Of a DNA stretch of 40,000 nucleotides, positions 1,467 to 20,260 are shown piece by piece. The position numbers were made by a program, and so were the translations under genes. The DNA is from Pseudomonas sp. ABY48 (GTDB lineage Bacteria; Pseudomonadota; Gammaproteobacteria; Pseudomonadales; Pseudomonadaceae). Under the pieces are notes generated by a model. That model had not been told where the DNA came from. It ran no database searches and was given only the letters and a program-made list of their open reading frames with translations. Position 1 is the stretch's first letter; each line of letters begins with the position of its first letter. The DNA is taken from NCBI RefSeq assembly GCF_048627035.1, contig NZ_CP184478.1. The stretch is one strand, 5' to 3'.

Positions 1467-1473
1467 GGCTTGG

Positions 1474-2542: not shown

Positions 2543-5500
2543 ATGGTGCTGTTTAAGGGAATGCTAGTCGAATTACCCCGTGGGCTGGGTGTAGGGAAAT
2601 TGGAGTTAGTCAGCGATGGTCGCTGTTCGATTTCCGCCTTCCATTCGATATTGCGCACAGAAACTTTTGATCTTGCATTGAGCGTACTTCGTCGCGCTTT
2701 TTTGAGTCCGCAAACACGCGTCTATGTGAAGCAAGACGACAAATTCGAAGTTGGGCGTATCACCAGTTATCTGAAGCAAGACAACGGCTTGATCGATTAT
2801 GAAGTTCGCTTTCCTAACGGCCGGCAAGAAGATTTTAGCGAGTTGGATCTTTATGTGCGTCTTTGGAATGCGCCGGAGGATCCAGCCGAGATTCTCGCGG
2901 CGGGGGGAGGCGAAAGCCAATTTCTGCATGATCATCGGCAGTCGGCTTTGCTACCCCTGCTTAAGTTACGTAGCGCTGCACAAGGCCTAACTGCTCTACT
3001 CTCTGCTGGAATCGACTTCGTTCCACACCAGATTGCCGCAGTCCGCCGCGTCCTTACGGATCCTATTCAGCGCTATTTACTTGCGGATGAGGTCGGCCTG
3101 GGGAAAACGATAGAGGCTGGCCTAATCATTCGGCAACACCTCATCGACAATCCTAATGTTGGGGTACTGATCGCAACCCCAACGCACTTGTGTGAACAAT
3201 GGCGATCTGAACTAGTTAACAAGCTCAAGCTAGACCAATTCGATGCAGCATTTGAATGTTGCTCTCATGCTGATTTGGCGCGTGTTTCACGCATGCCTGA
3301 CATATTAGTTGTTGACGAGGCACATCATCTAGTCGGTATTGAGTCAGGGCCACTTGCAAAAGCTGCAAGCCGTCTTGTCGAAATTGCACATAAAACCCCG
3401 ATTTTACTATTGCTTTCTGCAACTCCCGCTCTTAGTCATGAGGGGAAATTCCTCGCACTTCTCAATTTGCTTGATCCGCTTTCCCATCCTTTGAGCGATC
3501 TAGATGGGTTTAGAGAAAAGCTTCAGCAGCGCCGCGAATTTGGAAGATTACTGCTTAGTTTGGATCCTAAAAGTCCCGGCCTCGTTATCCGTAAGCGCAG
3601 CGCCGAGATACAAAAGCTCTTTCCAAACGACCGCATAGTCACGGAACTTGCTCCTCGACTAATAGAGGCGAGTCAGCATGGAACAATTGATCTTGAGCCC
3701 GTCTGCAACGCGCTGAAGGAGCATATTGCTGACAGTTATCGCATCCACCAACGGCTGATCCGCTCCCGTCGAGCCGATGCCAAGGGCTGGGAGTTCATGC
3801 CGCGAGGTCCGGCAGTTAATGGTGTGCCGATTCTTAGCCATGTTCGAATAGAAGTCGACCCCGACGACAATCTAGCCGCTATTGCCTCCGGTCTTGAAGA
3901 CTGGCGTTTTTCGGCGATTGAGGCCGCACACGGCAATGCAGCCTTATACCGGCAGTATGCGACTCGGTATGCACGACTACTCGAGTCTTTTAGCGTGAGC
4001 AATACAGCGTTTTTCACCGAGACCAATCCGGCCGACGCACTTTTCAATGATGAAGAGGAAATACTCGAGTCATTGCGTGCACTGATCACTGACAATGATG
4101 AAAGTCGCCGGATCGCCCTTATGGTGGAAAGTACGAAGCGTTTGCTTAAAACACTTTTAGCGGACACTAGAAATCCTAAGGTAGTAGTCTTTGCGCCATC
4201 GGCCGATGTAGCTACCTCATTTCATGAGGCGTTTCACGACGGGTGTGAAGGAGTTGTCACCTTCTTGTTTGTCGAAGACGGGGAGAATGATGAGACCCAG
4301 ACTGCAAGTGCGTTCGTGAATCTTGACGCCACCGCTGTCCTAGTGACGGATCGTTGCGGTGAGGAAGGGCTCAATCTCAACTGCGCCGATGCGATAGTTC
4401 ATTTGGATTTGCCGCTTTCGGCGGCAAGACTTGAACAGCGGATTGGGAGGCTAGATCGCTTTGGCAGGAGGCAGTCAGTCATTCGTCACCGCATCCTATT
4501 ACCTTACGACGATGACGCGAGCCCTTGGTTGGCGTGGTTCTCTTTCCTTGCAAATGGCTTCTTGATCTTCAATCGTTCAATTAGCGACGTTCAGTTCCTC
4601 CTCGACGATATTGAAAGTCAGGGGCTTATCACTCTGTTTGAGAAGGGGCCTGACGCGCTTGTGGCCTTGAGCGAGGAGATCCGACAACGAATTGCTGAGG
4701 AGCGACGTTCGCAGGATGAGCAGTATGCGTTAGACCGAATTGCGCTGGCCGAGGAGCCTGTCGAAGAATTTATTCAGACGTTGGAAGATGCGGAGGAAGA
4801 CGAACAAGCTCTTGAGCACGGCGTTAATCAATGGCTTATCGGCGGACTTCAACTTAAAAAGCGACCATATGCTTGGCCGGAAGAAGATCCGTTCAAACTC
4901 GTTGCCGACCACAACACACTCATCCCGCGTTTGCCATGGTTGAGCGCGTTTGGCATCGAGGATTTGAAGCCTCTCACATGGCGCCGCCGGGTAGCGACAA
5001 AACGCCCCGAAACGACACTGTTAAGGCCCGGAACTCCCCTTATTGATGTAACTGAACGCTTTATGCGTTGGGATGACCGAGGAACTGCATTTGTAACATG
5101 GCGCAAGGCTCATGAATGGATCGGAGATCCGTGGGTCGGTTTTCGCCTCTGTTTTGTCGTCGAACCGAATATCGAAATGACGGATATGCTGACACCAACG
5201 TCAAGAGAGCTTGCATTGGCGCGCCGCGCACAGCGCTATTTCGCACCATACTCGGAGATTATCCATGTTGATGTGAATGGAGATATCGTCGAAGATCCGA
5301 AATTACTCTCGATTTTGCATAGGCCCTATAGGAAAGGGGCAGATGCTACTGACATAAACCTTGGAAGTCGGCCGCATCTACTAGAGCAAATCATCGACGC
5401 CGCATCTTTTCAGCGTTGTTGTCGTCTAGTTCGCGACTCCGCACGCGCCATGCTTCGTACTCGGCCGGAGTTCACTGACCGGACCTTTGCAGCTGGTAAG

Positions 5501-5692
5501 GCTGTGCAGGCAGATCTTGATCGCCACCGTAATCGCGAGTTTCGCGATGAACTCGGCGAAAACTCTTTTACTAAGGCAGATGCCGCGATTATCGAAGAGA
5601 TTTTGCCCGGCGTAATCAACCCAACAATTCGCCTTGATGCTATGGGGTGTTTTGTCATCGCGGGTTTTAGCCCAAGTGTTGAACATGAGTAA
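2543..5692 (+). CDS. dpdE: SNF2-family (RapA/HepA-like) SF2 helicase, DpdE
   Basis: 1049 aa, with an AGGAGG just upstream of the ATG. Motifs: LLADEVGLGKTIEAG (I), VVDEAHHL (II), LLLSATP (III), EEGLNLNCADAIVHLDLP...LEQRIGRLDRFGR (V-VI). It is the first gene of a block whose order and sizes match dpdE-K, next to dpdABC/queCE. Confidence 0.8.
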   Translation: MVLFKGMLVELPRGLGVGKLELVSDGRCSISAFHSILRTETFDLALSVLRRAFLSPQTRVYVKQDDKFEVGRITSYLKQDNGLIDYEVRFPNGRQEDFSELDLYVRLWNAPEDPAEILAAGGGESQFLHDHRQSALLPLLKLRSAAQGLTALLSAGIDFVPHQIAAVRRVLTDPIQRYLLADEVGLGKTIEAGLIIRQHLIDNPNVGVLIATPTHLCEQWRSELVNKLKLDQFDAAFECCSHADLARVSRMPDILVVDEAHHLVGIESGPLAKAASRLVEIAHKTPILLLLSATPALSHEGKFLALLNLLDPLSHPLSDLDGFREKLQQRREFGRLLLSLDPKSPGLVIRKRSAEIQKLFPNDRIVTELAPRLIEASQHGTIDLEPVCNALKEHIADSYRIHQRLIRSRRADAKGWEFMPRGPAVNGVPILSHVRIEVDPDDNLAAIASGLEDWRFSAIEAAHGNAALYRQYATRYARLLESFSVSNTAFFTETNPADALFNDEEEILESLRALITDNDESRRIALMVESTKRLLKTLLADTRNPKVVVFAPSADVATSFHEAFHDGCEGVVTFLFVEDGENDETQTASAFVNLDATAVLVTDRCGEEGLNLNCADAIVHLDLPLSAARLEQRIGRLDRFGRRQSVIRHRILLPYDDDASPWLAWFSFLANGFLIFNRSISDVQFLLDDIESQGLITLFEKGPDALVALSEEIRQRIAEERRSQDEQYALDRIALAEEPVEEFIQTLEDAEEDEQALEHGVNQWLIGGLQLKKRPYAWPEEDPFKLVADHNTLIPRLPWLSAFGIEDLKPLTWRRRVATKRPETTLLRPGTPLIDVTERFMRWDDRGTAFVTWRKAHEWIGDPWVGFRLCFVVEPNIEMTDMLTPTSRELALARRAQRYFAPYSEIIHVDVNGDIVEDPKLLSILHRPYRKGADATDINLGSRPHLLEQIIDAASFQRCCRLVRDSARAMLRTRPEFTDRTFAAGKAVQADLDRHRNREFRDELGENSFTKADAAIIEEILPGVINPTIRLDAMGCFVIAGFSPSVEHE

Positions 5693-8180
5693 GCTGGAGG
5701 GCGGTACCGCGTTCAGCGCGCTGGCAACTCTTCTTCTGGGCGACCACTCTGGTGAGTGGCAAGCCCTTTCTACATCAATCGAGAGGCTGCGGTTAGCGCT
5801 TACCGAAGAGCCTCAGCGTGCTAGTAGCCTCGACCTTGCTGTGCTGCTACGACAAGCTCTTTGTTTCGAGCATGCTCGACGTGGCTATGAAGCTTCTCCA
5901 GTTTTGCTAATCCGACATGCTCGGTTTTCGGACTTTATGGGATGGACTCTGGTAGGCCTGAACGCAACCATCTCGCCGGATGGATATAAAGTGTCAGCGC
6001 TTGCCTGGCAACCGGAATGGCTCAATAAAGCTGATATACAAGGTGTTGATGCACGTGCATCGTCTGAAACAATCTGCCGTGACTTCACCACTAATAGTAT
6101 CGAAGGAGATCCGTTTCTGAAGTCGGTAGGTCGCACTTACTATCGCAGCGTTGGGCAAAGGAGTGCGGTTCGTGCTGCCCTTTCCACACCATCCGGCGGC
6201 ACGTTAGTCATCGCTCTGCCAACAGGGGAAGGTAAAAGTTTGATCTTCCAGTTAGCGCAAAGCATTGGCTTTACTGAGGGAGAGAGAAGAGACGGGCGTA
6301 GGGTCACTCTAGTGATTGTTCCAACTGTTGCTTTGGGTATCAATCATGAACTTGAGGCGGCTAATGTTTGCGGGCTGCCAAAGCCGCTCGCGTTTCAAGG
6401 TGGCAATGACGTTCAAAATGCTCGCATAGCCGAAAGGATCGCGGATGGAACGCAAGGCTTGTGTTTTGTTTCGCCTGAGGCGGCTTGTGGGGTGCTTCGA
6501 GGCGCGCTTCGCCGCGCGGCCGAGGCAGGTTATCTTCATGCTCTCGTGATTGACGAGGCCCATTTGGTCGATCAATGGGGGACTGGTTTTCGAACGGAGT
6601 TTCAGGAACTAAGTGGTCTTCGTCGCGAACTTATTGCGGCTGCCCGTCCTGAGCAACGTATGCGGACGTTGCTGCTTTCGGCAACGCTGACTGATAACTC
6701 GCTAGAAACGCTTCGGTCCCTGTTTGGAGTCGATGGGGCTTTTGAGAGCATCGCTGCGGTCCAGTTGCGGCCCGAACCCGATTATTGGGTTGCGCCAGTT
6801 GCTGTCGATGAAGTCCGCATAGAGCGTGTCATGGAGGCACTTAATCATGCGCCGCGGCCTGCCGTCCTCTACGTGACCAAAGTGCGCGACGCTGAGGTTT
6901 GGTTCAGTCGGTTGTGGGCTGCTGGGTTCAGGCGGATAGCTAAAATGCATGGCAACACTGAAAGAGATGAACGCGAACTGGTTGTTAACCAGTGGCGCAA
7001 TGGCCTGCTCGATATAGTCGTTGGAACCTCAGCTTTTGGCCTCGGAATCGACTATCCCCATGCCCGTAGCGTTTTGCATGCTTGCATCCCGGAGACCCTG
7101 GATCGCTTCTATCAAGAAGTTGGGAGGGGAGGACGTGATGGGCGCGCGTCACTCTCTCTAATTGTTCCATCTCGGCGGGACCTCGCTATTGCCAAGGCGA
7201 TCAACAAAATATCAGTCATTAGTATTCGCCGCGGCATTGAGCGCTGGAGAACGATGTTCGATCGTAAAGTCAAATTGTCTAATGGAAATTTTGCTGTGCG
7301 GATCGATGATCGGCCCGGTGCGGGAGAAGTGGATATCGATATGTTCGGTGTAACCAACACCGATTGGAACCTTCGAACGCTTGCACTGATGGCCCGTGGA
7401 GAGTTAGTCAAGCTACTGGGAACACCGTACCCGAGGCTTGAACGTGTCGGAGATTGGGTTGAGCTTGACATACTAGAGGAGGGCCATCTCGATAAGAATA
7501 TTTGGACGGTTCGAGTGGAGCCTGTCCGTCTAGAAGGATGGATGGCAAACAATCGTAATCTAGCGCTGATGCGACGCTTCGTAGAAAATATGCATTGCCC
7601 CGCGGAGATTTTCGAAGACCTGTATGGATTTGCGCGCATAGGCCGCGTATGTAGTCGCTGCAATATTTGTCGAGACGATCCCGAGCGTCGTCGTTCTTCG
7701 ATAAAAGTTGGAGAGCCACGTTCGCCTTGGATAAAGCCTATACATGCCTCTTTAACTCGGTTGTTAGGCTCAGACGGAAGGCTGCTTGTGACCTACGATC
7801 CTGACCATCTTTCAAAAAGCGAATCTCGCCGCCTAGGCGAAAGTTATCGTCGGCTACAACAAATCGGTGTCGCCAAGCTATTGATACTTGGCCAGCAGCC
7901 CTTTGATATGGATCGTGTACTTAGTTTTGCGAACACAGTTCCATTTTTTGTAAGTAACGTTAAATCGTTGGCTTTATCACGGCTCCCTAAGGGGGCCGAG
8001 ATAGTTATGGTTGCGCCCGAAGAAGAGCTCGAGTCTCTTAATTTACACCCACGAGTAGGCTCTCCAAGAATTTTTATTACGTCCAAATATCTTACTGCAC
8101 CAGACGGACGCCGGCTTGTTGACGTTTTTGGTGGCAGAGTACTAACGCTTGACGAGTTCCACGCGAGGGTTGCCGAATGA
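5685..8180 (+). CDS. dpdF: RecQ-like DEAH helicase, DpdF
   Basis: The start is placed at ATG 5685 (MSKLEGG, 8-nt overlap with the dpdE stop). The upstream ATG 5634 lies inside dpdE. Motifs: PTGEGKSLIFQL, VIDEAHLVDQWGTGFR, LLLSATLT, GTSAFGLGIDYPHARSVLH...YQEVGRGGRDG. It also has a RecQ-type zinc motif, C-x17-CSRCNIC. Confidence 0.8.
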   Translation: MSKLEGGTAFSALATLLLGDHSGEWQALSTSIERLRLALTEEPQRASSLDLAVLLRQALCFEHARRGYEASPVLLIRHARFSDFMGWTLVGLNATISPDGYKVSALAWQPEWLNKADIQGVDARASSETICRDFTTNSIEGDPFLKSVGRTYYRSVGQRSAVRAALSTPSGGTLVIALPTGEGKSLIFQLAQSIGFTEGERRDGRRVTLVIVPTVALGINHELEAANVCGLPKPLAFQGGNDVQNARIAERIADGTQGLCFVSPEAACGVLRGALRRAAEAGYLHALVIDEAHLVDQWGTGFRTEFQELSGLRRELIAAARPEQRMRTLLLSATLTDNSLETLRSLFGVDGAFESIAAVQLRPEPDYWVAPVAVDEVRIERVMEALNHAPRPAVLYVTKVRDAEVWFSRLWAAGFRRIAKMHGNTERDERELVVNQWRNGLLDIVVGTSAFGLGIDYPHARSVLHACIPETLDRFYQEVGRGGRDGRASLSLIVPSRRDLAIAKAINKISVISIRRGIERWRTMFDRKVKLSNGNFAVRIDDRPGAGEVDIDMFGVTNTDWNLRTLALMARGELVKLLGTPYPRLERVGDWVELDILEEGHLDKNIWTVRVEPVRLEGWMANNRNLALMRRFVENMHCPAEIFEDLYGFARIGRVCSRCNICRDDPERRRSSIKVGEPRSPWIKPIHASLTRLLGSDGRLLVTYDPDHLSKSESRRLGESYRRLQQIGVAKLLILGQQPFDMDRVLSFANTVPFFVSNVKSLALSRLPKGAEIVMVAPEEELESLNLHPRVGSPRIFITSKYLTAPDGRRLVDVFGGRVLTLDEFHARVAE

Positions 8181-9091
8181 GTATTATCACTATTGCGCAG
8201 GCAGTGCCAAGTCGCTTGTTCTCTATATATGCTGCCTTGTACGAGAGTTCCGCAGGCGAATTAAAGGATCGATTAGAAGCCTGTGCGACCCCACCGAGTC
8301 TACGAACTAGGGGCGGGGATGAAGATGGTGAACTTGTTACGACATTGTTCAAAAACACCTTAACTGAGGCCCGTCGACTAGGCTTGGTAGAAGAAGTCGA
8401 AGAGCGGCTAAGGATCCCTAATGATTTGCGTTCTTCTGTGCAAGGAGTGGTGGGTAGAGAGACTAAGTTCCGTGATCACTTGCTCAAGGTCCTGTTTAAC
8501 ACAGTGCTTGCCGAAGATGCACAGCAAAGTGGTTTCATGTTGGCATTATCATGGTTCCTTACAAACAGTCCATTGATTCCTCTCGGCTTTTCAACTCCAC
8601 CACAGAACCAGTTGGAAAAACAACTTGGAATGCAATATAGTCGGACGGAGTTAACTAGCCTTAGCCGTTACCAAAATTTTCTATATTGGGCTCGTTTCCT
8701 TGGATTCGCCACGATTGTTGGTCGTGACAACGAGGATGGCAAAGATACGCGGTGGGTCTTTCCTGATCCCCTCGTTGCCATCGATTCTGCACTGCTTAAA
8801 GTGTTCTCCGATGATAGTGAACTTTCTGTCGAAGTTTTTATGGTGCGCCTTTGCAATATCTATCCAGTTTTTGAAGGAGGTACTGCGCGCCAAGAAATCG
8901 ACTCTATGTTGGGAGTATCTCCTTATGTAGATGATCGCAAACTTTCTCAGTCGACAAGTGTTGCTTTGCAGCGCCTTCAGGATCGTCAACGTTTAAATCT
9001 GGTAAGTCGATCTGACGCGCCAATGGTGATCTTCGATCTTGGTACCAGCGAACGTCGTGTAAGCCATGTGATTATGAGGGGGCAAGCATGA
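8177..9091 (+). CDS. dpdG: Hypothetical protein in the DpdG position
   Basis: 304 aa, with ATGA start/stop overlaps with both neighbours. I recognise no motif. The assignment rests only on position and size between the RecQ-like and P-loop genes. Confidence 0.55.
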   Translation: MSIITIAQAVPSRLFSIYAALYESSAGELKDRLEACATPPSLRTRGGDEDGELVTTLFKNTLTEARRLGLVEEVEERLRIPNDLRSSVQGVVGRETKFRDHLLKVLFNTVLAEDAQQSGFMLALSWFLTNSPLIPLGFSTPPQNQLEKQLGMQYSRTELTSLSRYQNFLYWARFLGFATIVGRDNEDGKDTRWVFPDPLVAIDSALLKVFSDDSELSVEVFMVRLCNIYPVFEGGTARQEIDSMLGVSPYVDDRKLSQSTSVALQRLQDRQRLNLVSRSDAPMVIFDLGTSERRVSHVIMRGQA

Positions 9092-12171: not shown

Positions 12172-12874
12172 GAGGGCTAACGATCTTTCGTTGAGAATCG
12201 CGAAGTACAGTCGTCTGAAAAATTCCGTACTTGAAGCGAAACCGTTTGAGACGCGTGCAACTCAATTCACTAACATATCAGAGAAGCTTGTTCTCACCCG
12301 TGACAGACTTGAGCGACTGTCGGAAGCTGGTATTGATGTAGGCTTTATACCTAAGGATGGTGAGGCGCTCGTAAGCAAGGCGGTGATATTGCGTGAGGCG
12401 TTGCGAACAAATCCCAAGGTCTTAAACGATCCGCCATTTAACCTCCGGTTTGATTTTACCGATCGCTTGCTAGGCATCACCAATGCGGCCGATGCTGAAA
12501 TGCTTGCTGCTTGGAGGTCTTTCATTCACGACAACAGTGATTCTACATCAACTGAGATCCTGGATGCGTTGTATGCAGTTCCGCAGTACCGCCCCATAGT
12601 TTCAAAAATTCGCGCTTGCCAGACCCAACTTGAGACGCTGGCTTCCAGCGTCCCTAACGAACTGAAGATTGCGACGGATCAACTTCGAGCCATTGTCCAA
12701 ACGCATCGTTTGGCTTGGGCGGAAATGACCACTGGGGGCATTCCGGATCCGGTAGTCAGCTTCCTACGTGATTGTGCCGCAGATGGAGCGATGTTGGCCG
12801 GGCTCACTGAGGAGGTTTGGGGATGGCTTGAAAACCGTAATTTACTTAATTCTTTCCGAATAAAGATCAAATAG
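12158..12874 (+). CDS. dpdI: Hypothetical protein in the DpdI position
   Basis: The start is placed at ATG 12158 (MVLLERAND), 8 nt after an AAGGAG and 14 nt inside the dpdH 3' end. The upstream ATG 12122 has no SD. The protein is 238 aa with no recognisable motif; the assignment is by position. Confidence 0.55.
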   Translation: MVLLERANDLSLRIAKYSRLKNSVLEAKPFETRATQFTNISEKLVLTRDRLERLSEAGIDVGFIPKDGEALVSKAVILREALRTNPKVLNDPPFNLRFDFTDRLLGITNAADAEMLAAWRSFIHDNSDSTSTEILDALYAVPQYRPIVSKIRACQTQLETLASSVPNELKIATDQLRAIVQTHRLAWAEMTTGGIPDPVVSFLRDCAADGAMLAGLTEEVWGWLENRNLLNSFRIKIK

Positions 12875-12884
12875 GGGTGGCTCA

Positions 12885-15800
12885 GTGCTAATTTCAGAAA
12901 AGGCGCTCCACCTTCTGGATTCCATAGAAATTATAGAGATGCGATCTCTTGAGTGGGGGTTTACCGATGGCTCACTAAGTGAGGATGAGGCGTTAGCCCT
13001 TGCCAACGTTTCCGCGGACGGTGGAAATGGTGACGAACTGCTTGAGGCGTTGATCGAAGGCCGCCTTATTTACGAGTTCAGAACCAGCAGCGCCGAAATC
13101 CGATACCGCTCTCGTTTCGCGGAGATGGTGCGACTGCTTGCGGCATCAAGGCAATTATTTCCCAATAAGCCTTGGCAAGGTGCTCCCCACCTTGTAGCCG
13201 ATTTTCGAGTTGATCGCCGTCGTCGTAGGTTTCCAAAGCGGGATCTGGATCCGGCATACGTATTGGGTGCCAACTCGATGACTCTCGGCAAAACAGACTT
13301 GCGTAAAGATCTATGGCGGGCTCTGACTAACCGTCCAAATATGAAACTTGCCGCCTTCCAACAGCGTGCTGCTGTACGCCTCATTGATGGCATAGAAGAC
13401 AGTGGGACTATAGTCACGGCTGGGACAGGCAGCGGGAAAACTATTGCTTTTTATCTACCGGCACTTATACGCGTTGGCGAAGCTATCGCTAAAGATAACT
13501 GGGTCAAGGCAATTTCGATTTATCCAAGGGTCGAGTTGCTAAAAGACCAGTTTGCAGAGGTCTATCGTCTAGCGAGAACTATGGACACAGCGCTGGCCGC
13601 TCATGGACGGCGGCCGCTATTGATAGGCACGCTTTTCAGAGCAACACCTCGAAATGCCAAACGCGAAGATCTCATCGCCCATGGCTGGAACCGTAAAGGC
13701 GGAGATTTTGTTTGCCCCTGGCTTCGCTGTCCTGCCTGTGATGGCGAACTCATTTGGCGCGAAACAGACCTCCGTGCGCAGCGTGAGGTTCTTCAGTGCT
13801 CACAACACAATTGTGCGTGTTACGTGCCGGATAGCCATATTGTCTTGACCCGTTCGCGACTTCAAAAAGAACCCCCTGACGTGCTCTTCACGACCACGGA
13901 AATCCTTAATCAGAGACTCTCCGATCAATGGACTCGAAGGCTCTTTGGCGTCGATATGCCAATGGGGAAGAAGCCACTCTTCGCACTCCTTGATGAAGTA
14001 CATACATACGAAGGTGCAACGGGCGCGCAGGCCGCGCTTACTTTGCGCCGGTGGCGTCACCTTTTAAGTGGGCCGATTTGTTGGGCGGGGCTTTCGGCAA
14101 CATTAGGAGAGGCCGCCAGTTTTTTTGCGGATCTCACTGGGGCGAACCCGGACAAGGTTGTAGAGATTACCCCGGCGGGTGACGAAATTGAGGAGCAGGG
14201 TGCTGAATATCAGATAATTCTGCGCGGCGATCCTGCGTCACGTTCGTCTCTGCTTTCGACTACGATCCAAACCTCAATGCTCCTGCCACGTTTGCTTGAT
14301 CCGCCTGGGTTGCCCGTATCGAAGGGGTCATTTGGGTGCCGCGCGTTTCTCTTTACCGACGACCTAGACGTAACAAATCGTCTATATGACGACCTCCGCG
14401 ACGCCGAGGCGTACACCATATATGGCAAACCTGATCAGCAACGCGATCCGCTGGCGGACCTACGTAGTGCAGGACAGGATGCGCAAATCCGTGACATCGA
14501 GGGGCAGCGTTGGCGCGTCTGTGAGGAAATTGGTCATCCGCTGAATCGACGTCTTATCGTGGGGCGGACAACATCTCAGGATGCGGGGGTCAATCAGGCC
14601 TCGAACATCATAGTGGCTACCGCTGCGCTTGAGGTCGGATTCAATGACCCGCAGGTTGGTGCAGTAATACAGCACAAAGCCCCAAGGGGGATGGCCTCTT
14701 TCCTCCAGCGCAAGGGGCGAGCAGGACGCAACCGTGAGATGCGTCCTGTTACGGTGACAGTTCTTTCAGATTATGGCCGCGACCGAATAGCCTATCAGTC
14801 CTATGAGCATCTCTTTGATCCCAGCCTTACAGCTCAACATTTGCCGGTTCAAAATCCCTATATTTTGCGCATTCAAGCGGTCTACGCGCTGATTGATTGG
14901 CTAGCGAAGCGCACCACTACAAACGAAAAGGTGTGGTTCTGGGATTTGCTGAGTCGACCAGTGCTTGGCGCATCCAGTTCTGCTGGAAAAATCCTCAGCG
15001 CAGTGAAAACCCAACTCAGCAAAATAATTCAGGGAGATCCGTCGAGTCTGGCAGATCTCCGCGCGTACCTCATTGCTTCCCTAGGTATTGATGAGGAAAC
15101 TGTAGACTCGTTGCTTTGGGAAGCGCCCCGGTCGCTACTGCTTGAAGTTGTTCCCACTCTAGTGCGCCGAGTATTTCGCCAATGGCAACTCGCGTTTCCG
15201 ACCAATTACGGCGATCGCGATATACAAGTTGATTTTCACCCGCTGCCAGATTTCATCCCGCGAAGTTTGTTCAGTGATCTCAGCCTACCAGAAGTTCAAA
15301 TCATTGTTCCGCCCGCTGATGTCAATCATGCTGAACGCATTGAGACGATGCCAATCGTTCAAGCGCTCAACCAACTCGTTCCAGGTCGCGTGAGTCGCCG
15401 CTTTGCTTTCGAACGCGGTGCCTTAGCGCATTGGGTTCCCGTTGATATCGCCCACCCTGAGCAGGAGCGACGAATCAGTGATTATGCTGAAGAACACGAA
15501 TTTGTTGGGACTTTCCGGGGGAGTTACAACGATGACGGCAACGCGGAGTCCTTTCTGGTTTTCCGGCCTTGGGTTGTTCGACTTGAAAAAGTAGCACGCA
15601 AGGACGCCTTGCCAAGTAGCAATGGACGACTTACTTGGCATACAGATATTGAACCCAATGGTGAGGCACTCACCGTTGGCATTCCGTCTCGTACCCAGTG
15701 GCGTACCTATATTAAGACGGCTTGCTTTTATCTGCATCGTTATCGAGCCAGCGTCAGCGTTCGGCGGTTTGCACCGACGGCACACGCCAATGTTCGGACT

Positions 15801-17447
15801 TTGAAGGATGATTTTCCTGTCACAATTCATTTCCGAAGTGATGGAGGTCTTCCAGCCGCACTAGGGTTCGAGTTGGAGGTTGATGGTTTCTACCTTGATT
15901 TCGATTTGCCGACCGCTAGCGAACTGGCGAGGGTTGAACTCCCGCAACATCTTGCTGCAAGCAGTACGCTGGCTTTTTTACGCGACACATTTTTGACTGA
16001 CGCCGATTTGCCGACTGATCTCAACAGCTTTCAACGCGATTGGCTTTTTCAAGTCCTGCAATCCGCTCTTTTTGCTGACGCGGCGGATACCGATCGTACG
16101 ATTGAGGAGTCCGCATCTGATCTGCTGAGTGAAGATCGTATGGAGGTCGCACTTTGTGAGGTAATGGACGATCTCTTTGGAGGAGTGCCACTCAATCCTG
16201 ACGGCGATTACACAGTCGATGATGTAGATGACATCTACGAGGTGACTAGTTGCGAAGGGGGCGAGGAGGTTGGATCTTCATCACCCCCAACGGCTACTAG
16301 GCTGCGGCAGACGCTTGCGCTTCATCTTTCCCGAGCGATCGTCCGGGATCGATTGCGCGTATTGGCCGGAGAGTTTACGAATCCTGATCCAGAGCGCCAC
16401 AGTCGCTGGCTTCGACGTACCATCGTTGAGACCTTGGGCGAGGCTCTTCTTCAAGCCTGCGCAGTGGCGGCGCCGAAACATGCTGTCGTTGATACCCTTC
16501 TCGTAGACGTACGGGATGACTGCACCAGCAATGTTGCGCGGATATGGATAAGCGAAGCGACACTCGGCGGAGCAGGGGTCCTACAGGCGTTCGCCGAACG
16601 CTTCACAGCTGAACCACGCGTTTTTTTCAGCGCCTTGGAGGCGGCGCTCACCCCAACCGATATCGAATTAGTGGATGGTGGTCTACGCCAAATTCTTGAT
16701 CTTTCCCAATCCGATCCGGACATCGGTGAGCAACTCGCTCAATTACGGAGTACCCATTCCCATGGGGAACGGTCGGCGCTTTGGCAATCATTTTCACATG
16801 CTCTTTCGAGTCGTGGGGCTGTTGATCTGAGTCACGCGCTGGCTGTATCGTTCAACTCCCGTTTGCTTAGATCCGGTGCTGGGCCTGCTCTGGACCGCTT
16901 GTTAGTAGATCTTCAAAAATTCTGGGATGATGTAGAGAAACGTTTTCGAGTGACTGTTGGATTGCGTGAGTTTGCTTATGTTTGTAGCAAAAAGCGGAGT
17001 ATCTCCCTCCGTGTACGTAGCTTCCTCGTTCAAACTTTGCCATTAGCCGTAGCTAATAAGGTGACAATCCTCGACGCCGTGATGAGTTTGTTGTGGCCAC
17101 GAGAAGTTGAACTACGTCAGAAGTTGCTCCGCTCTTATAATCCCTACCGGCAAGCGCGAACCACTGATCCGACGTTGATTCGCTATCTGCTACTTACGCG
17201 TACTGTGGTTACGGTGGAACTATCGGATGATGCGTGGCGAGGAAAACTTAACGCAGCATTAGAAACTGATGGTTCGTGTCGTTTGTCTGTAGTAGCTACA
17301 TCGGCAAGCATCATGCGCGAGACACTAGTTAAACTTGTTGCCACCCCTATAGATATTGGTTATCTACAGTTTTATCCAGTTGTTGAAAGATTCGAACGCG
17401 CTGAAGGTAAAATCATGGTGACCGTTTCACTAAGGGAGCAACTCTGA
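12885..17447 (+). CDS. dpdJ: Very large DEAD/DEAH-box (DEVH) SF2 helicase, DpdJ
   Basis: 1520 aa with a GTG start. Motifs: TAGTGSGKTIAFYLPAL (I), LLDEVHTYEG (II), LSATLG (III), ATAALEVGFNDPQVGAVIQHKAP...FLQRKGRAGRN (V-VI). A Cys-rich insert, CPWLRCPAC...CSQHNCAC, lies between motifs I and II. Confidence 0.8.
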   Translation: MLISEKALHLLDSIEIIEMRSLEWGFTDGSLSEDEALALANVSADGGNGDELLEALIEGRLIYEFRTSSAEIRYRSRFAEMVRLLAASRQLFPNKPWQGAPHLVADFRVDRRRRRFPKRDLDPAYVLGANSMTLGKTDLRKDLWRALTNRPNMKLAAFQQRAAVRLIDGIEDSGTIVTAGTGSGKTIAFYLPALIRVGEAIAKDNWVKAISIYPRVELLKDQFAEVYRLARTMDTALAAHGRRPLLIGTLFRATPRNAKREDLIAHGWNRKGGDFVCPWLRCPACDGELIWRETDLRAQREVLQCSQHNCACYVPDSHIVLTRSRLQKEPPDVLFTTTEILNQRLSDQWTRRLFGVDMPMGKKPLFALLDEVHTYEGATGAQAALTLRRWRHLLSGPICWAGLSATLGEAASFFADLTGANPDKVVEITPAGDEIEEQGAEYQIILRGDPASRSSLLSTTIQTSMLLPRLLDPPGLPVSKGSFGCRAFLFTDDLDVTNRLYDDLRDAEAYTIYGKPDQQRDPLADLRSAGQDAQIRDIEGQRWRVCEEIGHPLNRRLIVGRTTSQDAGVNQASNIIVATAALEVGFNDPQVGAVIQHKAPRGMASFLQRKGRAGRNREMRPVTVTVLSDYGRDRIAYQSYEHLFDPSLTAQHLPVQNPYILRIQAVYALIDWLAKRTTTNEKVWFWDLLSRPVLGASSSAGKILSAVKTQLSKIIQGDPSSLADLRAYLIASLGIDEETVDSLLWEAPRSLLLEVVPTLVRRVFRQWQLAFPTNYGDRDIQVDFHPLPDFIPRSLFSDLSLPEVQIIVPPADVNHAERIETMPIVQALNQLVPGRVSRRFAFERGALAHWVPVDIAHPEQERRISDYAEEHEFVGTFRGSYNDDGNAESFLVFRPWVVRLEKVARKDALPSSNGRLTWHTDIEPNGEALTVGIPSRTQWRTYIKTACFYLHRYRASVSVRRFAPTAHANVRTLKDDFPVTIHFRSDGGLPAALGFELEVDGFYLDFDLPTASELARVELPQHLAASSTLAFLRDTFLTDADLPTDLNSFQRDWLFQVLQSALFADAADTDRTIEESASDLLSEDRMEVALCEVMDDLFGGVPLNPDGDYTVDDVDDIYEVTSCEGGEEVGSSSPPTATRLRQTLALHLSRAIVRDRLRVLAGEFTNPDPERHSRWLRRTIVETLGEALLQACAVAAPKHAVVDTLLVDVRDDCTSNVARIWISEATLGGAGVLQAFAERFTAEPRVFFSALEAALTPTDIELVDGGLRQILDLSQSDPDIGEQLAQLRSTHSHGERSALWQSFSHALSSRGAVDLSHALAVSFNSRLLRSGAGPALDRLLVDLQKFWDDVEKRFRVTVGLREFAYVCSKKRSISLRVRSFLVQTLPLAVANKVTILDAVMSLLWPREVELRQKLLRSYNPYRQARTTDPTLIRYLLLTRTVVTVELSDDAWRGKLNAALETDGSCRLSVVATSASIMRETLVKLVATPIDIGYLQFYPVVERFERAEGKIMVTVSLREQL

Positions 17448-17974
17448 TGGTTTTTCCGTCTCGAGACCTTCATGGTCCTGGCCAAGCACGTGCTGTCCGC
17501 GACCTATTCCAAAGTCTATTTTCGGCTGAGCTAATACATCCAAGTCAGACGCTATGGTTCTTCTTTGCATGGATCTCAGACGTAGAGATCATTGATAACT
17601 CGGCTCGTCAATTCTCCGCCCTGGAGCCAGATTGGCCGGCAGCACAGATCAGATTGTCGCAGGTACTGAGGGCGTTACTGAGTCGTGGAGTACAGGTACG
17701 GCTAATAATCCGTGAAGATGGTCATAATGATTACTTTATAGCGCGCCTAAAGGAGTTAAAGTTGCGTTACAGAGATAGTTTGCAATGGGTTATTGAAAAA
17801 AGTTTCCATGCGAAAGGTTTGCTTGGATCCGACTATTTTCTGAGTGGATCGATGAATCTAACTCTAAACGGCATTTCCGTAAACGGTGAGCATCTTGTCT
17901 TGCGAACGGATCCAGCCGCTGTCGCTGAACAATCCATTCAACTTGAATCGCAGTGGGGGGGGCGGTTGGTATGA
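17447..17974 (+). CDS. dpdK: Small phospholipase-D-family (single HKD-like motif) nuclease, DpdK
   Basis: 175 aa. A TGATG junction joins it to dpdJ, with an AGGGAG upstream. It carries an HKD-like motif, SFHAKGLLGSDYFLSGSMNLT. Confidence 0.75.
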   Translation: MVFPSRDLHGPGQARAVRDLFQSLFSAELIHPSQTLWFFFAWISDVEIIDNSARQFSALEPDWPAAQIRLSQVLRALLSRGVQVRLIIREDGHNDYFIARLKELKLRYRDSLQWVIEKSFHAKGLLGSDYFLSGSMNLTLNGISVNGEHLVLRTDPAAVAEQSIQLESQWGGRLV

Positions 17975-20121
17975 TCGGCTTCCATATCGAGGATTCTGCA
18001 AGGTTACATGATGCTATAGTCTCGGCTTCTGGATATGGGAATCTAGTTGATGAGGTTCAAAGTCTGTGTTATCTGGTGGCTCAGTCATTAACGGATCTAG
18101 ATTTTCCTGGAGCTCTTGTTCCAACTTTAACTGTGGATGGCAGTCTGCAAGTCTATGCCGTAACTCGGACAATCACAGAATGGCGAAGGTTAAATCCAAT
18201 CCTCATTGCTTTCAGTGGTCCGACGATCACTTCCTACACTGGTGTGCCAGGAGCGCTTCCGATTGGAGGGGTGATTGAGGATGTTATACGTTCAATCGCC
18301 CCCTCAAATATCGGTATTCTTCGCTTGCCCGCAGATAGTAAAAAACGAGTAGCCGCTCTGCGTGCACTGCAGCGAGCCCGCGAGACTCTTGCGCGCGCAC
18401 CTAGTGCGCAACGCAAGGCTCCGCTACCGACTAGTTGGCTGCTCGCTAGCTTCCAAGACCATTTGAACGTGGGTCGACGTGCTGCTGCTTGGGACACTCT
18501 CAATCGCCTTAGGGATGAACTACGGGTCGATGCGCTTAACCTCAAGTTCCTTGAGGTGCAATTGCTCGCAGCGTTTGAGGATTGGAGCGCGATTCTCAAT
18601 ATGGCGGGGTTTGCGAGTCTCTGTATTGCAAGACGTCCACCTGCTGTTACGACTTTGCTTTTGGAGGCGCTTTATCGTGTCTATATTCAGGAGCACTTTC
18701 TCAGCGGTGACGTCGAAGAAACGCGTAGGTGTTATGCGGAACTGTGCCGAATACACGCTAAATCGATGCTAGTGGTGCCGTACCCCGCCATGTTGACACC
18801 CGGAGGATGGCGAATTTATGCGTTGGAGGCATTGTTATCTTCCGAAAATCATGAGTTGGTCAACGTTGTAATCGAGCAGTCCTTAGTGCTCGGTTGGATC
18901 TCCGAATACCTACCTGGCTCTTCTACAGCAAAAGCCACCGAGGTGTCGCGTGTTTTACAGACGCAACTCAACCACGCCCGCAAAGCACTCACAGAGGTCG
19001 ACTGTGTCAACAGTCTCGATGCTGTTGCAACTGCAATCGCGAGCATTAATCGATTGAGTAGCGCCGAGTTGGCTCAATTGAGTTCTGCTGAACCGTTTCG
19101 AACATTGTTACGCACTGTTTCGGATGTCGGCGGGCTAGGTGGACTGCCTAGTAGTTGGCTGGAGTGGCTAAGAAAGGTTTCGGACCCCGATTTCACTAAT
19201 GCGCTCGAAATTGCACGTCAGGGGAAAGACGAGTGGGTTCTTGATGAAAGTATCGCCGACCCGGTTGCAGTACAGCGTTTTGTTTCGGCTCTGGAGGCAG
19301 TACAGCACGATCAGATAGCAGCTGAGCGAACCGCGAACGCTCTTCCATTCATCGTCGCCTGGCTTCAGCGTGACGCAGTTTTCCCTCGTAGCGAGATGGG
19401 GCCCGTCTACTCCATCCTTCTTACATTATTCGCGATGGGGGCGAGTCGTGGGCGTGGTATCTACGAGTCTAGTCATATTCTCATTCATGGGTTACTAGCA
19501 ATCGGCGTCACAGAGAGCGTTTATCGAGGGTTAATCGCTGATACCGAGGAATTAGCGGGTTCGGGGTTCGGCGTCGAAATGGTCTATTGGTTACTCGAAG
19601 TTATTGAGGACTTTATACGATTCGGTGCCCCAGATGCTAATGCACGGGAAATTTTCCTTCACTGCGTCTTGTCGAAGATTGCTCCAATTTACTCGCGTCT
19701 AAGCAGCCTCCAATGCGCAGCGATCGTACGTCTGGCCGAACAACTAGGATGGCGCCTCGATGATATTGGGGTAAGTAAAGGTAGCGTTGCGCCAGATGAC
19801 TTTTCATCAAAAATGGATGGTCTGCGTATTGGCATCTACACGCTGAACGAGTCATCTAGCCGTCAAGCTAAAGCGGCGTTAGAAGTTGTCTCTCCCAATG
19901 TAATAGTTGACTGCAACGCTGATCATGGTGGTACGGATAAATTACGTTCTCTTGCAAAAAATGCAGATCTTTTTGTGATGACTTCACTCTCCGCAAAGCA
20001 TGCTGCTACAGACTGTATTCGTGAGCATCGAGTTAATCGTCCGCTTCTTTATGCTCAAGGGGCGGGGGTTTCAAGCATACTTCGTGTGATTGAGGATTAC
20101 TTAAAATTGGGTAGCGCTTGA
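17971..20121 (+). CDS. 716-aa helical-repeat protein ending the operon; possible DpdD
   Basis: The start is placed at ATG 17971 (MIGFHIED), which forms an ATGA overlap with the dpdK stop. The N-terminal two-thirds are largely Leu/Ala-rich. The C-terminal ~100 aa (LRIGIYTLNE...ADLFVMTSLSAKHAATDCIREH...) resembles a DUF2325-type domain from memory. DpdD is the only canonical Dpd component not otherwise accounted for. Confidence 0.4.
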   Translation: MIGFHIEDSARLHDAIVSASGYGNLVDEVQSLCYLVAQSLTDLDFPGALVPTLTVDGSLQVYAVTRTITEWRRLNPILIAFSGPTITSYTGVPGALPIGGVIEDVIRSIAPSNIGILRLPADSKKRVAALRALQRARETLARAPSAQRKAPLPTSWLLASFQDHLNVGRRAAAWDTLNRLRDELRVDALNLKFLEVQLLAAFEDWSAILNMAGFASLCIARRPPAVTTLLLEALYRVYIQEHFLSGDVEETRRCYAELCRIHAKSMLVVPYPAMLTPGGWRIYALEALLSSENHELVNVVIEQSLVLGWISEYLPGSSTAKATEVSRVLQTQLNHARKALTEVDCVNSLDAVATAIASINRLSSAELAQLSSAEPFRTLLRTVSDVGGLGGLPSSWLEWLRKVSDPDFTNALEIARQGKDEWVLDESIADPVAVQRFVSALEAVQHDQIAAERTANALPFIVAWLQRDAVFPRSEMGPVYSILLTLFAMGASRGRGIYESSHILIHGLLAIGVTESVYRGLIADTEELAGSGFGVEMVYWLLEVIEDFIRFGAPDANAREIFLHCVLSKIAPIYSRLSSLQCAAIVRLAEQLGWRLDDIGVSKGSVAPDDFSSKMDGLRIGIYTLNESSSRQAKAALEVVSPNVIVDCNADHGGTDKLRSLAKNADLFVMTSLSAKHAATDCIREHRVNRPLLYAQGAGVSSILRVIEDYLKLGSA

Positions 20122-20260
20122 GCGCGTTGCATATGCTTTTGAGCAATCCCTTTCTCGAAGGATAGGTAGGCTTTAAATGTATTTAATTATTTGGCGAACC
20201 CCCGATAGGTGTCCAAGACGTTTTTTGGGGTTTGGCGATGAAGTATCATTGATGGTTTCG

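What the first reader, a model, noticed from the sequence alone, without database searches (positions are those of the whole stretch)
2543..20121. 17.6-kb eight-gene operon with three different SF2 helicases, a P-loop NTPase and a PLD nuclease, almost fully translationally coupled
**Junctions read directly.**
- dpdE/F: 8-nt overlap.
- F/G: ATGA.
- G/H: ATGA.
- H/I: 14-nt overlap with AAGGAG.
- I/J: 10-nt gap with a GTG start.
- J/K: TGATG.
- K/last gene: ATGA.

Such tight coupling implies fixed stoichiometry, that is, a multi-subunit machine. It would combine SNF2-type, RecQ-type and DEVH-type motors with a single-HKD nuclease. How such a complex distinguishes 7-deazaguanine-modified DNA from unmodified DNA is not established.
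Basis: partly seen in the sequence, partly recalled or inferred. Interest (0 to 1): 0.7.

Follow-up and report, generated by a model that had tools for sequence, protein, structure and literature searches.

The report
Canonical Dpd restriction operon, Pseudomonas
The eight tightly packed genes are the already-described restriction half (dpdE-F-G-H-I-J-K-D) of a 7-deazaguanine "Dpd" restriction-modification island in Pseudomonas sp. ABY48, so the finding is real but ordinary; the one new point is that this operon has been swapped as a cassette next to an unchanged modification module.

Summary

**What it is.** NCBIfam and PADLOC identify DpdE, F, G, H, (I), J, K and, as the unnamed last gene, DpdD. 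Convergent to them lies a complete modification module: dpdC-dpdB-dpdA-dpdB-queC-queE plus a third dpdB. The source is Pseudomonas sp. ABY48, where RefSeq already names DpdA, DpdJ and DpdK. This is a known system.

**Coupling is not special to this locus.** Gene order and junction overlaps recur in about 36-46 related loci at 22-82% protein identity. They also recur in the E. coli leuX island and in Archangium. The modification operon is ATGA-coupled too. This fits co-translation, but it does not show one eight-subunit machine.

**New here.**
- One modification module (96-100% amino-acid identity) sits beside at least five restriction operons whose DpdK and DpdD are only 22-54% identical.
- The recombination breakpoints lie inside queE.
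- Against P. syringae there is a further break within the operon, near dpdH/dpdI.
- AlphaFold models suggest DpdD is an alpha-solenoid scaffold and DpdG a tandem winged-helix protein.

How modified DNA is recognised remains unknown.

The parts
1629..27687 (.). Whole Dpd genomic island (about 26 kb, G+C about 0.45-0.55 against 0.58-0.67 in the right-hand flank)
   Evidence: The left limit is where the 98.9%-identical metagenome contig L060 starts to match. It is also where L032 shares 119 nt. The right limit is where 98% identity to P. viridiflava L059 stops.
1630..1661 (+). 32-nt 3' fragment of tRNA-Pro(GGG), an att-like island end. There is no intact tRNA in the window.
   Evidence: It matches exactly the 3' end of the full tRNA-Pro at L032 2190-2266. 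ARAGORN finds no tRNA in the window.
2543..5692 (+). dpdE: SNF2/RapA-like SF2 ATPase, 1049 aa, DEAH at residue 258, AGGAGG before the ATG
   Evidence: NCBIfam DpdE scores 950 bits against a cut-off of 500. It also gives weaker hits to RapA and DISARM DrmD. Pfam finds SNF2-rel_dom and Helicase_C. PADLOC finds DpdE, BrxHI/II and DrmD. The PDB sequence search gives RapA at 2e-30.
5685..8180 (+). dpdF: RecQ-like DEAH helicase, 831 aa
   Evidence: NCBIfam DpdF scores 783 bits against a cut-off of 550. The recQ_fam hit is 126 bits, below its cut-off of 219.8. Pfam finds DEAD and Helicase_C.
8177..9091 (+). dpdG: 304 aa, predicted tandem winged-helix protein, a candidate DNA binder
   Evidence: NCBIfam DpdG scores 157 bits against a cut-off of 80. 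The AF2 model has pLDDT 89.7 and pTM 0.88. Foldseek against the PDB finds nothing at E of 1e-3 or better. The top rows are the FokI recognition domain, AlkX/YcaQ and SelB WH2-4.
9088..12171 (+). dpdH: P-loop NTPase, 1027 aa, Walker A GTTGSGKS
   Evidence: NCBIfam DpdH scores 538 bits against a cut-off of 450. Pfam AAA_22. PADLOC DpdH scores 1331 bits. There is no relative among PDB sequences.
12158..12874 (+). dpdI: 238 aa, fast-evolving, no known domain (alternative start GTG 12161)
   Evidence: NCBIfam DpdI aligns over the full length, but at 33.9 bits against a cut-off of 150. PADLOC finds nothing even at E of 5. A gene of 226-263 aa sits at the same position in all related operons.
12885..17447 (+). 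dpdJ: YprA/DrmA-like SF2 helicase, 1520 aa, GTG start, DEVH at residue 370
   Evidence: NCBIfam DpdJ scores 1759 bits against a cut-off of 800. PADLOC finds DpdJ plus weaker DruE, DrmA and BrxHI. PDB sequence matches to Lhr and YprA are weak. RefSeq names it 'protein DpdJ'.
17447..17974 (+). dpdK: single-HKD phospholipase-D-family nuclease, 175 aa
   Evidence: NCBIfam DpdK scores 208 bits against a cut-off of 100. Pfam PLDc_2. PADLOC finds DpdK and DrmC at 2.6e-8.
   Evidence: NCBIfam DpdD scores 509 bits against a cut-off of 300. PADLOC DpdD scores 773 bits. The AF2 model has pLDDT 85.5 and pTM 0.52. Foldseek returns only repeat proteins of PPR, TPR and HEAT type, with E of 2.5e-3 or worse. 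The C-terminal domain gives a weak DUF2325 hit at E = 0.0036.
20261..20896 (-). queE, convergent with dpdD, and the site of the recombination breakpoints between restriction and modification modules
   Evidence: TIGR04508 QueE scores 342 bits.
20960..21661 (-). queC
   Evidence: TIGR00364 scores 205 bits against a cut-off of 150.
21689..22744 (-). dpdB, copy 1
   Evidence: NCBIfam DpdB scores 375 bits against a cut-off of 300.
22741..24039 (-). dpdA, the TGT-like DNA transglycosylase
   Evidence: NCBIfam DpdA scores 556 bits against a cut-off of 200. RefSeq names it DpdA.
24036..25157 (-). dpdB, copy 2 (373 aa, with the start that gene calls use in relatives; the ORF is open up to 25226)
   Evidence: NCBIfam DpdB scores 465 bits. 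Gene calls in L058 and L059 give 373 aa. The ATGA overlap with dpdC was read directly.
25154..26125 (-). dpdC
   Evidence: PADLOC DpdC scores 294 bits. It is 22% identical to the E. coli island's gene upstream of dpdA, E = 1e-7. NCBIfam and Pfam find nothing.
26170..27327 (+). dpdB, copy 3, divergent from dpdC
   Evidence: NCBIfam DpdB scores 353 bits.
27360..27687 (+). 5' part of a 145-aa island gene, cut by the island's right-hand truncation. The queD that follows in relatives is absent.

Best explanation
This is the restriction half of a complete, canonical Dpd (7-deazapurine-in-DNA) restriction-modification island in Pseudomonas sp. ABY48. The gene order is dpdE-F-G-H-I-J-K-D.

**Shown.**
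- The eight genes are intact and sit on one strand.
- They are joined by six overlaps and one 10-nt gap.
- That architecture is conserved across phyla.
- The six genes that could be tested are under purifying selection.
- A full modification module lies convergent to them: dpdC, dpdA, three copies of dpdB, queC and queE.

**From the literature.**
- DpdA and DpdB insert preQ0 into DNA, and DpdC converts it to dADG.
- dpdD-K are needed to restrict unmodified DNA.
- The role of each restriction protein is unknown.

**Inferred.**
- The operon is read as one mRNA from a promoter between 1750 and 2540. Ribosomes re-initiate at each junction, which keeps the products in set proportions.
- The products work as a DISARM/BREX-like ATP-driven surveillance apparatus made of sub-assemblies, not necessarily one eight-subunit particle.
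- The most deeply conserved coupled pair is DpdJ (YprA/DrmA-like helicase) with DpdK (single-HKD PLD nuclease, probably a dimer). I take this pair to be the sensor-effector core.
- DpdH with DpdI would be an ATPase module.
- DpdE (SNF2) and DpdF (RecQ-like) would be further motors.
- DpdG would be a winged-helix DNA binder and DpdD an alpha-solenoid scaffold.
- DNA lacking dPreQ0/dADG at DpdA sites would license cleavage, and the marks would veto it.

One modification module pairs with at least five very different restriction operons. So the mark is probably read without lineage-specific contacts between modification and restriction proteins.
For: **Identity.**
- NCBIfam equivalog hits are above cut-off for seven of the eight genes.
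- PADLOC Dpd models agree.
- RefSeq names proteins of this locus as Dpd proteins.
- The neighbouring genes are DpdA, three DpdB, DpdC, QueC and QueE.

**Conserved order and junctions.**

**The J/K overlap is the deepest.** It is kept in 45 of 46 loci. These include Acidobacteria, Planctomycetes and Myxococcota at about 30% identity.

**Inheritance together.** Across 33 loci, identity to the window co-varies among the eight proteins, with a mean Spearman rho of 0.76.

**Purifying selection.** Window against P. syringae, dN/dS is 0.11-0.28 for I, J, K and D. For G and H, pN (0.17-0.28) is far below pS (0.76-0.79, saturated).

**Relatedness to DISARM and BREX.** DpdE matches DrmD and BrxHI/II, DpdJ matches DrmA, DruE and BrxHI, and DpdK matches DrmC. 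The preprint 10.1101/2025.09.15.676423 says the same.

**Structure models.** DpdD is an alpha-solenoid and DpdG a tandem winged helix.

**Cassette exchange.**

**Literature on function.** PMC10164549, PMC5699537 and PMC12707154.
Against: - Nothing here shows transcription, protein association, nuclease activity or the presence of dPreQ0/dADG in ABY48 DNA.
- Fold matches for DpdD and DpdG are weak. No Foldseek hit reaches E of 1e-3, and TM-scores are 0.27 or lower. The 'scaffold' and 'DNA binder' roles are therefore readings of secondary structure and topology.
- DpdH and DpdI gave no BrxC hit in PADLOC, even at E of 5. The BrxC likeness rests only on the preprint.
- The island has lost its own queD. 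preQ0 supply must then come from housekeeping genes, which were not examined.
- The promoter and terminator scans have no power here. Matches do not exceed shuffled sequence.
Confidence: 0.8

Rival explanations
1. All eight products assemble into one stoichiometric holo-complex, and the translational coupling exists to fix subunit ratios.
For: - All seven junctions are coupled, and this is conserved over very large distances.
- The eight proteins co-vary in divergence.
- DpdD is predicted to be a long alpha-solenoid, a typical assembly platform.
- The operon is replaced whole beside an unchanged modification module.
Against: - Coupling alone does not imply a complex. The modification operon is coupled in the same way, and short overlaps are common in operons generally (my own knowledge).
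- The window and P. syringae differ in blocks. The end of dpdF, dpdG and dpdH are about 60-75% identical at the nucleotide level, while dpdJ, dpdK and dpdD are 82-89%. So subunits from diverged lineages are combined in nature.
- In the related DISARM system, as I recall it, only DrmA-DrmB was shown to be a stable complex. I did not check this here.
- No interaction data exist.
Confidence: 0.2
2. The operon is a self-contained DISARM/BREX-like anti-phage system that does not read 7-deazaguanine. It is merely parked next to the modification genes in a defence island.
For: - Restriction operons are freely exchanged beside one modification module.
- Components resemble DISARM and BREX parts.
- In L060 the island lies next to GmrSD-type genes.
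Against: - In the proteobacterial loci whose flanks reach far enough, preQ0-synthesis genes, dpdA or dpdB sit beside the restriction operon, whichever restriction lineage is present.
- No methyltransferase, PglZ or other alternative self-marker lies in the island.
- The literature links dpdD-K to restriction of DNA lacking the modification (PMC10164549; PMC5699537).
Confidence: 0.05
3. The locus is a decaying remnant in this strain: an island truncated at its right end, with a tRNA fragment and no integrase. The operon would no longer be functional.
For: - The island's right end is cut at 27687, and queD is lost.
- Only a 32-nt tRNA fragment marks the left end.
- In L060 a nearly identical operon has a shortened dpdJ call of 1394 aa.
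Against: - All eight ORFs are full length and match relatives end to end.
- The six genes tested (G to D) show purifying selection.
- All modification genes are intact.
Confidence: 0.05

Closest known systems
Dpd system of Salmonella Montevideo and E. coli (leuX island; Thiaville et al. 2016; Gedara/Hung et al. 2023, PMC10164549)
   Same: - The gene set is the same.
- The order is the same: dpdE-F-G-H-I-J-K-D in E. coli B27.
- Junctions are short overlaps or small gaps.
- The families are the same by NCBIfam and PADLOC.
- The island sits at a tRNA-associated site.
   Different: - The proteins are distant. DpdK is 36% and DpdD about 28% identical to those of E. coli.
- The modification genes are convergent rather than upstream and co-directional.
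- There are three dpdB copies.
- queC and queE lie in the island, whereas E. coli has only queD.
- The island is next to rpoS, with only a tRNA-Pro fragment.
DISARM (DrmA/DrmB helicase, DrmC PLD nuclease, DrmD SNF2, DrmMI/MII methyltransferase)
   Same: The part types are shared: a DrmA/YprA-like helicase (DpdJ), an SNF2 ATPase (DpdE, DrmD model 148 bits) and a small PLD nuclease (DpdK, DrmC model E = 2.6e-8). A self-mark on DNA is thought to veto attack.
   Different: - The self-mark is a 7-deazaguanine base exchange, not methylation.
- There is no methyltransferase.
- All DISARM model scores are far below their cut-offs.
- According to the preprint, DpdJ is unsplit and lacks the DUF1998 zinc cluster.
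- The operon has extra components: DpdF, G, H, I and D.
BREX (BrxC ATPase, BrxHI/HII helicases, PglX, PglZ)
   Same: DpdE hits the PADLOC BrxHI/BrxHII models at 126 bits. The preprint equates DpdH plus DpdI with BrxC.
   Different: - There is no PglZ and no PglX.
- No BrxC hit was found for DpdH or DpdI, even at E of 5.
BRIGADE, ARMADA and Druantia (YprA-family defence systems; 10.1101/2025.09.15.676423)
   Same: All are centred on a YprA-family helicase. BRIGADE also carries 7-deazaguanine genes, DpdG, DpdH/I and PLD nucleases.
   Different: BRIGADE is archaeal and has two YprA homologues. The window has a single canonical DpdJ, with an NCBIfam equivalog score of 1759 bits.

Membership tests
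Dpd restriction-modification system | DpdA, a TGT-family DNA transglycosylase | tested here: met
   Window 22741-24039 (-). NCBIfam DpdA scores 556 bits against a cut-off of 200. RefSeq names it DpdA.
Dpd restriction-modification system | DpdB, a DGQHR/ParB-like ATPase | tested here: met
   There are three copies, scoring 375, 465 and 353 bits against a cut-off of 300.
Dpd restriction-modification system | DpdC, which converts dPreQ0 to dADG | tested here: met
   Window 25154-26125 (-). PADLOC DpdC scores 294 bits over the full length. NCBIfam and Pfam find nothing.
Dpd restriction-modification system | The restriction genes DpdD, E, F, G, H, J and K | tested here: met
   All seven are above the NCBIfam equivalog cut-offs. 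All seven hit the PADLOC Dpd models.
Dpd restriction-modification system | DpdI | tested here: inconclusive
   The NCBIfam alignment covers the full length, but scores 33.9 bits against a cut-off of 150. PADLOC finds nothing. Position and size are conserved. The E. coli and L032 counterparts also fall below the cut-off, at 96 and 27 bits.
Dpd restriction-modification system | Gene order E-F-G-H-I-J-K-D next to the modification genes | tested here: met
   The order is the same in E. coli B27, in about 40 proteobacterial loci and in Archangium.
Dpd restriction-modification system | dPreQ0 or dADG actually present in genomic DNA | not testable with these tools
   This needs LC-MS/MS of ABY48 DNA.
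Dpd restriction-modification system | Restriction of unmodified incoming DNA that depends on dpdD-K | not testable with these tools
   This needs transformation or phage assays. The held papers report it for the enterobacterial system only.
DISARM | DrmA, DrmB (DUF1998) and DrmC core together with a DNA methyltransferase | tested here: not met
   Only sub-threshold DrmA, DrmC and DrmD similarity was found. No methyltransferase and no DrmB hit occurs among the island's genes.
BREX | PglZ phosphatase, PglX methyltransferase and BrxC | tested here: not met
   None of the 18 island proteins hits PglZ, PglX or BrxC. Only DpdE and DpdJ give BrxHI/HII-like helicase similarity.
RecQ family (for DpdF) | Score above the RecQ-family model cut-off | tested here: not met
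   TIGR00614 scores 126 bits against a cut-off of 219.8, and TIGR01389 scores 134 against 640. DpdF is RecQ-like in its helicase core only.

The most novel reading that the evidence does not exclude
The eight-gene operon is an exchangeable cassette. Homologous recombination replaces it again and again beside one fixed modification module. The anchors are queE on one side and the conserved island end on the other (tRNA-Pro fragment plus 86 nt). At least five restriction lineages share that module. Their DpdK proteins are 30-54% identical and their DpdD proteins 22-36%. Within a lineage, the blocks around F-G-H and I-J-K-D can also recombine.

If this reflects selection rather than chance sampling, two things follow:
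- The restriction machinery recognises the 7-deazaguanine mark itself and needs no lineage-specific partner in the modification module.
- The restriction half is the fast-diversifying target of phage counter-defence.

Nature would then have already done the swap experiment that could locate the reader of the mark.
Probability: 0.5. Interest if true: 0.5.

Novelty: already known. Interest (0 to 1): 0.25.

Why it matters
As a locus it adds little. Dpd islands number in the tens of thousands (PMC11888242), and RefSeq already names proteins of this one as Dpd proteins.

What could be useful is the comparative result. How the dpdD-K proteins sense 7-deazaguanine is still unexplored (PMC12707154). 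A set of natural chimeras gives a ready panel for asking two questions:
- Which restriction proteins must match the mark?
- Which must match each other?

That panel has one modification module paired with five unrelated-looking restriction operons, plus an operon broken near dpdH/dpdI. It also points to DpdJ-DpdK, DpdG and DpdD as the first proteins to test.

Tried and rejected
- **Internal promoters and terminators.** The consensus scan of 1400-20900 found 20 promoter-like sites against 15.7 +/- 4.1 in shuffles, and 16 terminator-like sites against 21.0 +/- 5.3. This is uninformative, so I use it neither for nor against a single transcript.
- **RNA elements.** Rfam found no match in the window at gathering thresholds, and ARAGORN found no tRNA.
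- **Solved structures by sequence.** There was nothing for DpdD, DpdH or DpdK. DpdE gave only RapA, and DpdJ gave generic helicase cores.
- **DpdH/DpdI as a split BrxC.** PADLOC does not reproduce this.
- **D-last as a local rearrangement.** I first suspected this. I rejected it because E. coli B27 has the same order.
- **Absence of DpdC.** I first suspected this too, because NCBIfam and Pfam found nothing. I rejected it after the PADLOC hit.
- **Extending L032.** Looking up the exact DpdB1 protein to extend the L032 genome context failed because it is not on record.
- **Cluster sizes.** I did not use the cluster sizes as evidence. The DpdA cluster also contains DpdB sequences.
- **Papers not held.** The 2016 PNAS paper and the 2024 MMBR review could not be read.

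Full report
**Observation.** The + strand of window 2543-20121 holds eight ORFs of 1049, 831, 304, 1027, 238, 1520, 175 and 716 aa. Read directly, the junctions are:
- E/F: 8-nt overlap (ATG 5685, stop 5692)
- F/G: ATGA at 8177
- G/H: ATGA at 9088
- H/I: 14-nt overlap (ATG 12158, preceded by AAGGAG; a GTG at 12161 would give 11 nt)
- I/J: 10-nt gap before GTG 12885
- J/K: TGATG at 17445-17449
- K/last gene: ATGA at 17971

The motifs it named are also there: DEAH in the first two helicases, DEVH plus a Walker A motif in the third, Walker A in the NTPase, and a single HxK...GSxN element in the PLD protein.

**Identity.** NCBIfam equivalog models identify the following:

| Protein | Bits | Cut-off |
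|---|---|---|
| DpdE | 950 | 500 |
| DpdF | 783 | 550 |
| DpdG | 157 | 80 |
| DpdH | 538 | 450 |
| DpdJ | 1759 | 800 |
| DpdK | 208 | 100 |
| DpdD (the unnamed last gene) | 509 | 300 |

- The fifth gene aligns end to end with the DpdI model, but at 33.9 bits against a cut-off of 150. PADLOC has no hit for it.
- The positional counterparts of DpdI in E. coli and in another Pseudomonas also fall below the cut-off. DpdI is simply the fastest-evolving member.
- PADLOC agrees for the other seven genes. Pfam gives the expected domains.
- Convergent to the operon lie queE, queC, dpdB, dpdA, dpdB and dpdC. A third dpdB is divergent from dpdC.
- Exact-sequence look-up places the window in Pseudomonas sp. 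ABY48. There RefSeq already calls these proteins DpdA, DpdJ and DpdK.
[quoted passage not shown] It also calls it a 'presumptive restriction cluster' of eight genes (PMC12707154).

So the system is known.

**Is the coupling special?** I collected 56 loci from reference genomes using a DpdH alignment. About 40 proteobacterial loci have the order E-F-G-H-I-J-K-D. With alignment-guided start codons, the junctions are conserved:

| Junction | Conserved state | Loci |
|---|---|---|
| E/F | overlap | 37 of 39 |
| F/G | overlap | 36 of 38 |
| G/H | overlap | 34 of 40 (the rest 5 nt apart or less) |
| H/I | overlap | 36 of 37 |
| I/J | gap of 0-15 nt | 35 of 38 |
| J/K | overlap | 45 of 46 |
| K/D | overlap | 36 of 36 |

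- Independent annotations show the same pattern. In E. coli B27 the junctions are +5, -17, -1, -4, +15, -4 and -4, with D last. P. syringae and P. viridiflava agree.
- In Archangium, at 22-34% identity, eight ORFs of matching sizes again abut or overlap.
- The coupling is therefore an old, maintained property of Dpd restriction operons, not a peculiarity of this window.
- It is not confined to the restriction half. dpdC/dpdB, dpdB/dpdA and dpdA/dpdB in the modification operon are ATGA-coupled too.
- The consensus scan for internal promoters and terminators gave no more matches than shuffled sequence. That settles nothing either way.

**What the coupling can and cannot show.**
- Conservation argues that co-translation is selected.
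- Divergence of the eight proteins co-varies across 33 loci, with a mean Spearman rho of 0.76. It does not co-vary with the neighbouring QueC.
- Between the window and P. syringae, dN/dS is 0.11-0.28 for I, J, K and D. For G and H, non-synonymous change is far below the saturated synonymous change.
- These facts fit a functional unit. None of them shows a single eight-subunit particle.
- One result argues against strict eight-way co-adaptation. Against P. syringae the operon is mosaic: about 60-75% nucleotide identity through dpdG-dpdH, 82-89% through dpdJ-dpdK-dpdD, and 94-99% in the modification genes. The step lies near 12.3-12.7 kb.
I prefer sub-assemblies, with DpdJ-DpdK as the most deeply conserved coupled pair.

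**Likely mechanism.**
- Shown by others: DpdA and DpdB exchange guanine for preQ0 in DNA, DpdC makes dADG, and dpdD-K are needed for restriction. The individual roles are unknown (PMC10164549).
- Profile similarity here: DpdE resembles RapA, DISARM DrmD and BREX BrxHI/HII. DpdJ resembles DrmA, DruE and YprA. DpdK resembles DrmC. This agrees with the YprA-family preprint.
- The preprint's equation of DpdH plus DpdI with BrxC was not reproduced by PADLOC profiles.
- No component has a relative of solved structure beyond generic helicase cores.
- AlphaFold2 models from 58- and 60-sequence alignments gave the following. DpdD (pLDDT 85.5) has a small N-terminal alpha/beta domain, an alpha-solenoid of about 480 residues, and a C-terminal four-strand alpha/beta domain with invariant D651, G654, S674, K676, H677, G697, G699 and S701. 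That C-terminal domain also has a weak DUF2325 similarity. DpdG (pLDDT 89.7, pTM 0.88) is a run of helix-helix-helix-hairpin units.
- Foldseek found only repeat proteins for DpdD. For DpdG it found winged-helix arrays: the FokI recognition domain, AlkX/YcaQ and SelB WH2-4. All hits had E of 2e-3 or worse.
- My inference is an ATP-driven DNA-surveillance apparatus of the DISARM/BREX type. DpdJ-DpdK would be the sensor-nuclease core, DpdH/I an ATPase module, DpdE and DpdF additional motors, DpdG a DNA binder and DpdD a scaffold. 7-Deazaguanine marks would veto cleavage. Every step of this is inferred.

- Pseudomonas sp. ICMP22404 (L032) shares only two stretches with the window: 1629-1747 (96%) and 20251-22129. 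The first is the last 32 nt of tRNA-Pro(GGG) plus 86 nt. The full tRNA is present in L032, but only the fragment is in the window. Between the two stretches lies a different Dpd restriction operon, 28-54% identical in protein.
- An exact 37-mer from the 5' end of queE retrieved seven metagenome contigs.
- In L062, L063 and L064 the modification proteins are 93-100% identical to the window's; all but the third DpdB copy are 96% or more. The adjacent DpdK and DpdD are genuine by NCBIfam, but only 31-38% and 22-26% identical to the window's, and just as far from each other.
- In every such contig, queE is at least 96% identical over its first 100 nt and decays to about 60-65% by its 3' end. The breakpoints therefore lie inside queE.
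- So one modification module has been joined to at least five restriction lineages.
- The simplest reading is that the restriction machinery needs the mark, not a matched modification partner, and that the restriction half diversifies faster.
- I did not find this described in the held papers. I could not read the 2016 and 2024 reference papers.

**Island anatomy.**
- The island runs from 1629 to 27687.
- A 98.9%-identical metagenome contig matches from exactly 1629 onward and has GmrSD-type genes to the left of that point.
- P. viridiflava is 98% identical up to 27687. Beyond that it continues with the rest of a 145-aa gene and queD, both missing from the window.
- G+C is about 0.45-0.55 inside the island and 0.58-0.67 to its right.
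- rpoS lies at 361-1368.

**Verdict.** The mechanistic inference is unproven and only partly supported, and the system is already known. Interest is low for the finding as written. The cassette-exchange pattern gives it modest added value.

Noticed in passing
window 1748-20250 and 20261-20896; L032, L062, L063, L064: The same modification module (96-100% amino-acid identity; third DpdB copy 93-97%) sits beside at least five mutually diverged restriction operons. Their DpdK proteins are 30-54% identical and their DpdD proteins 22-36%. The breakpoints lie inside queE, where identity falls from at least 96% to about 60% along the gene.
   Followed up: yes
window about 12300-12700 (dpdH/dpdI boundary), compared with L058: The restriction operon is mosaic against P. 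syringae. Nucleotide identity is about 60-75% through dpdG-dpdH, 82-89% through dpdJ-dpdK-dpdD, and 94-99% in the modification genes. This points to recombination within the operon.
   Followed up: partly
window 1629-1747: The last 32 nt of tRNA-Pro(GGG) plus 86 nt form a conserved left end of the island, about 260 nt downstream of rpoS. There is no intact tRNA and no integrase in the window. The full tRNA precedes the island in Pseudomonas sp. ICMP22404 (L032 2190-2266).
   Followed up: partly
window 27360-27760: The island is truncated at 27687. A 145-aa island gene is cut, and the queD that follows it in P. viridiflava and P. syringae is absent. The sequence then runs into the 3' end of an alpha/beta-hydrolase gene on the other strand.
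   Followed up: partly
window 21689-22744 (-), 24036-25157 (-), 26170-27327 (+): There are three DpdB paralogues in one island, all above the NCBIfam cut-off. Extra dpdB copies are reported as common (PMC11888242). Their separate roles are unknown.
   Followed up: no
window 22741-25157 (-): The modification operon is ATGA-coupled at dpdC/dpdB, dpdB/dpdA and dpdA/dpdB. Tight coupling is therefore not specific to the restriction genes.
   Followed up: yes
window 12158-12874: DpdI evolves fastest, at 28-48% identity where its neighbours are 45-82%. It escapes the curated models in the window, in E. coli B27 (annotated 'hypothetical protein') and in L032.
   Followed up: partly
window 19800-20121 (DpdD residues about 610-716): DpdD has a C-terminal four-strand alpha/beta domain with invariant D651, G654, S674, K676, H677, G697, G699 and S701. 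It gives a weak DUF2325 hit (E = 0.0036, below the cut-off). It could be a ligand- or nucleotide-binding site, but this is unexplained.
   Followed up: partly
window about 1876-2061 (+): In the 98.9%-identical contig L060, the corresponding 61-aa gene call carries a precomputed HTH_Tnp_1 (IS3 transposase N-terminus) hit. My own Pfam scan of the window ORF 1821-2090 found nothing. It may be a transposase remnant upstream of dpdE.
   Followed up: partly
L068 1070-5460: Next to the shared queE, an IS3-family transposase is followed by an inverted dpdE-dpdF. The 3' part of this queE matches the L032 type. This looks like an IS-mediated rearrangement of a restriction operon.
   Followed up: no
L060 1-2512: Two GmrSD-type (type IV restriction) genes lie directly left of the Dpd island in a metagenome contig. 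The island is part of a larger defence island there.
   Followed up: no
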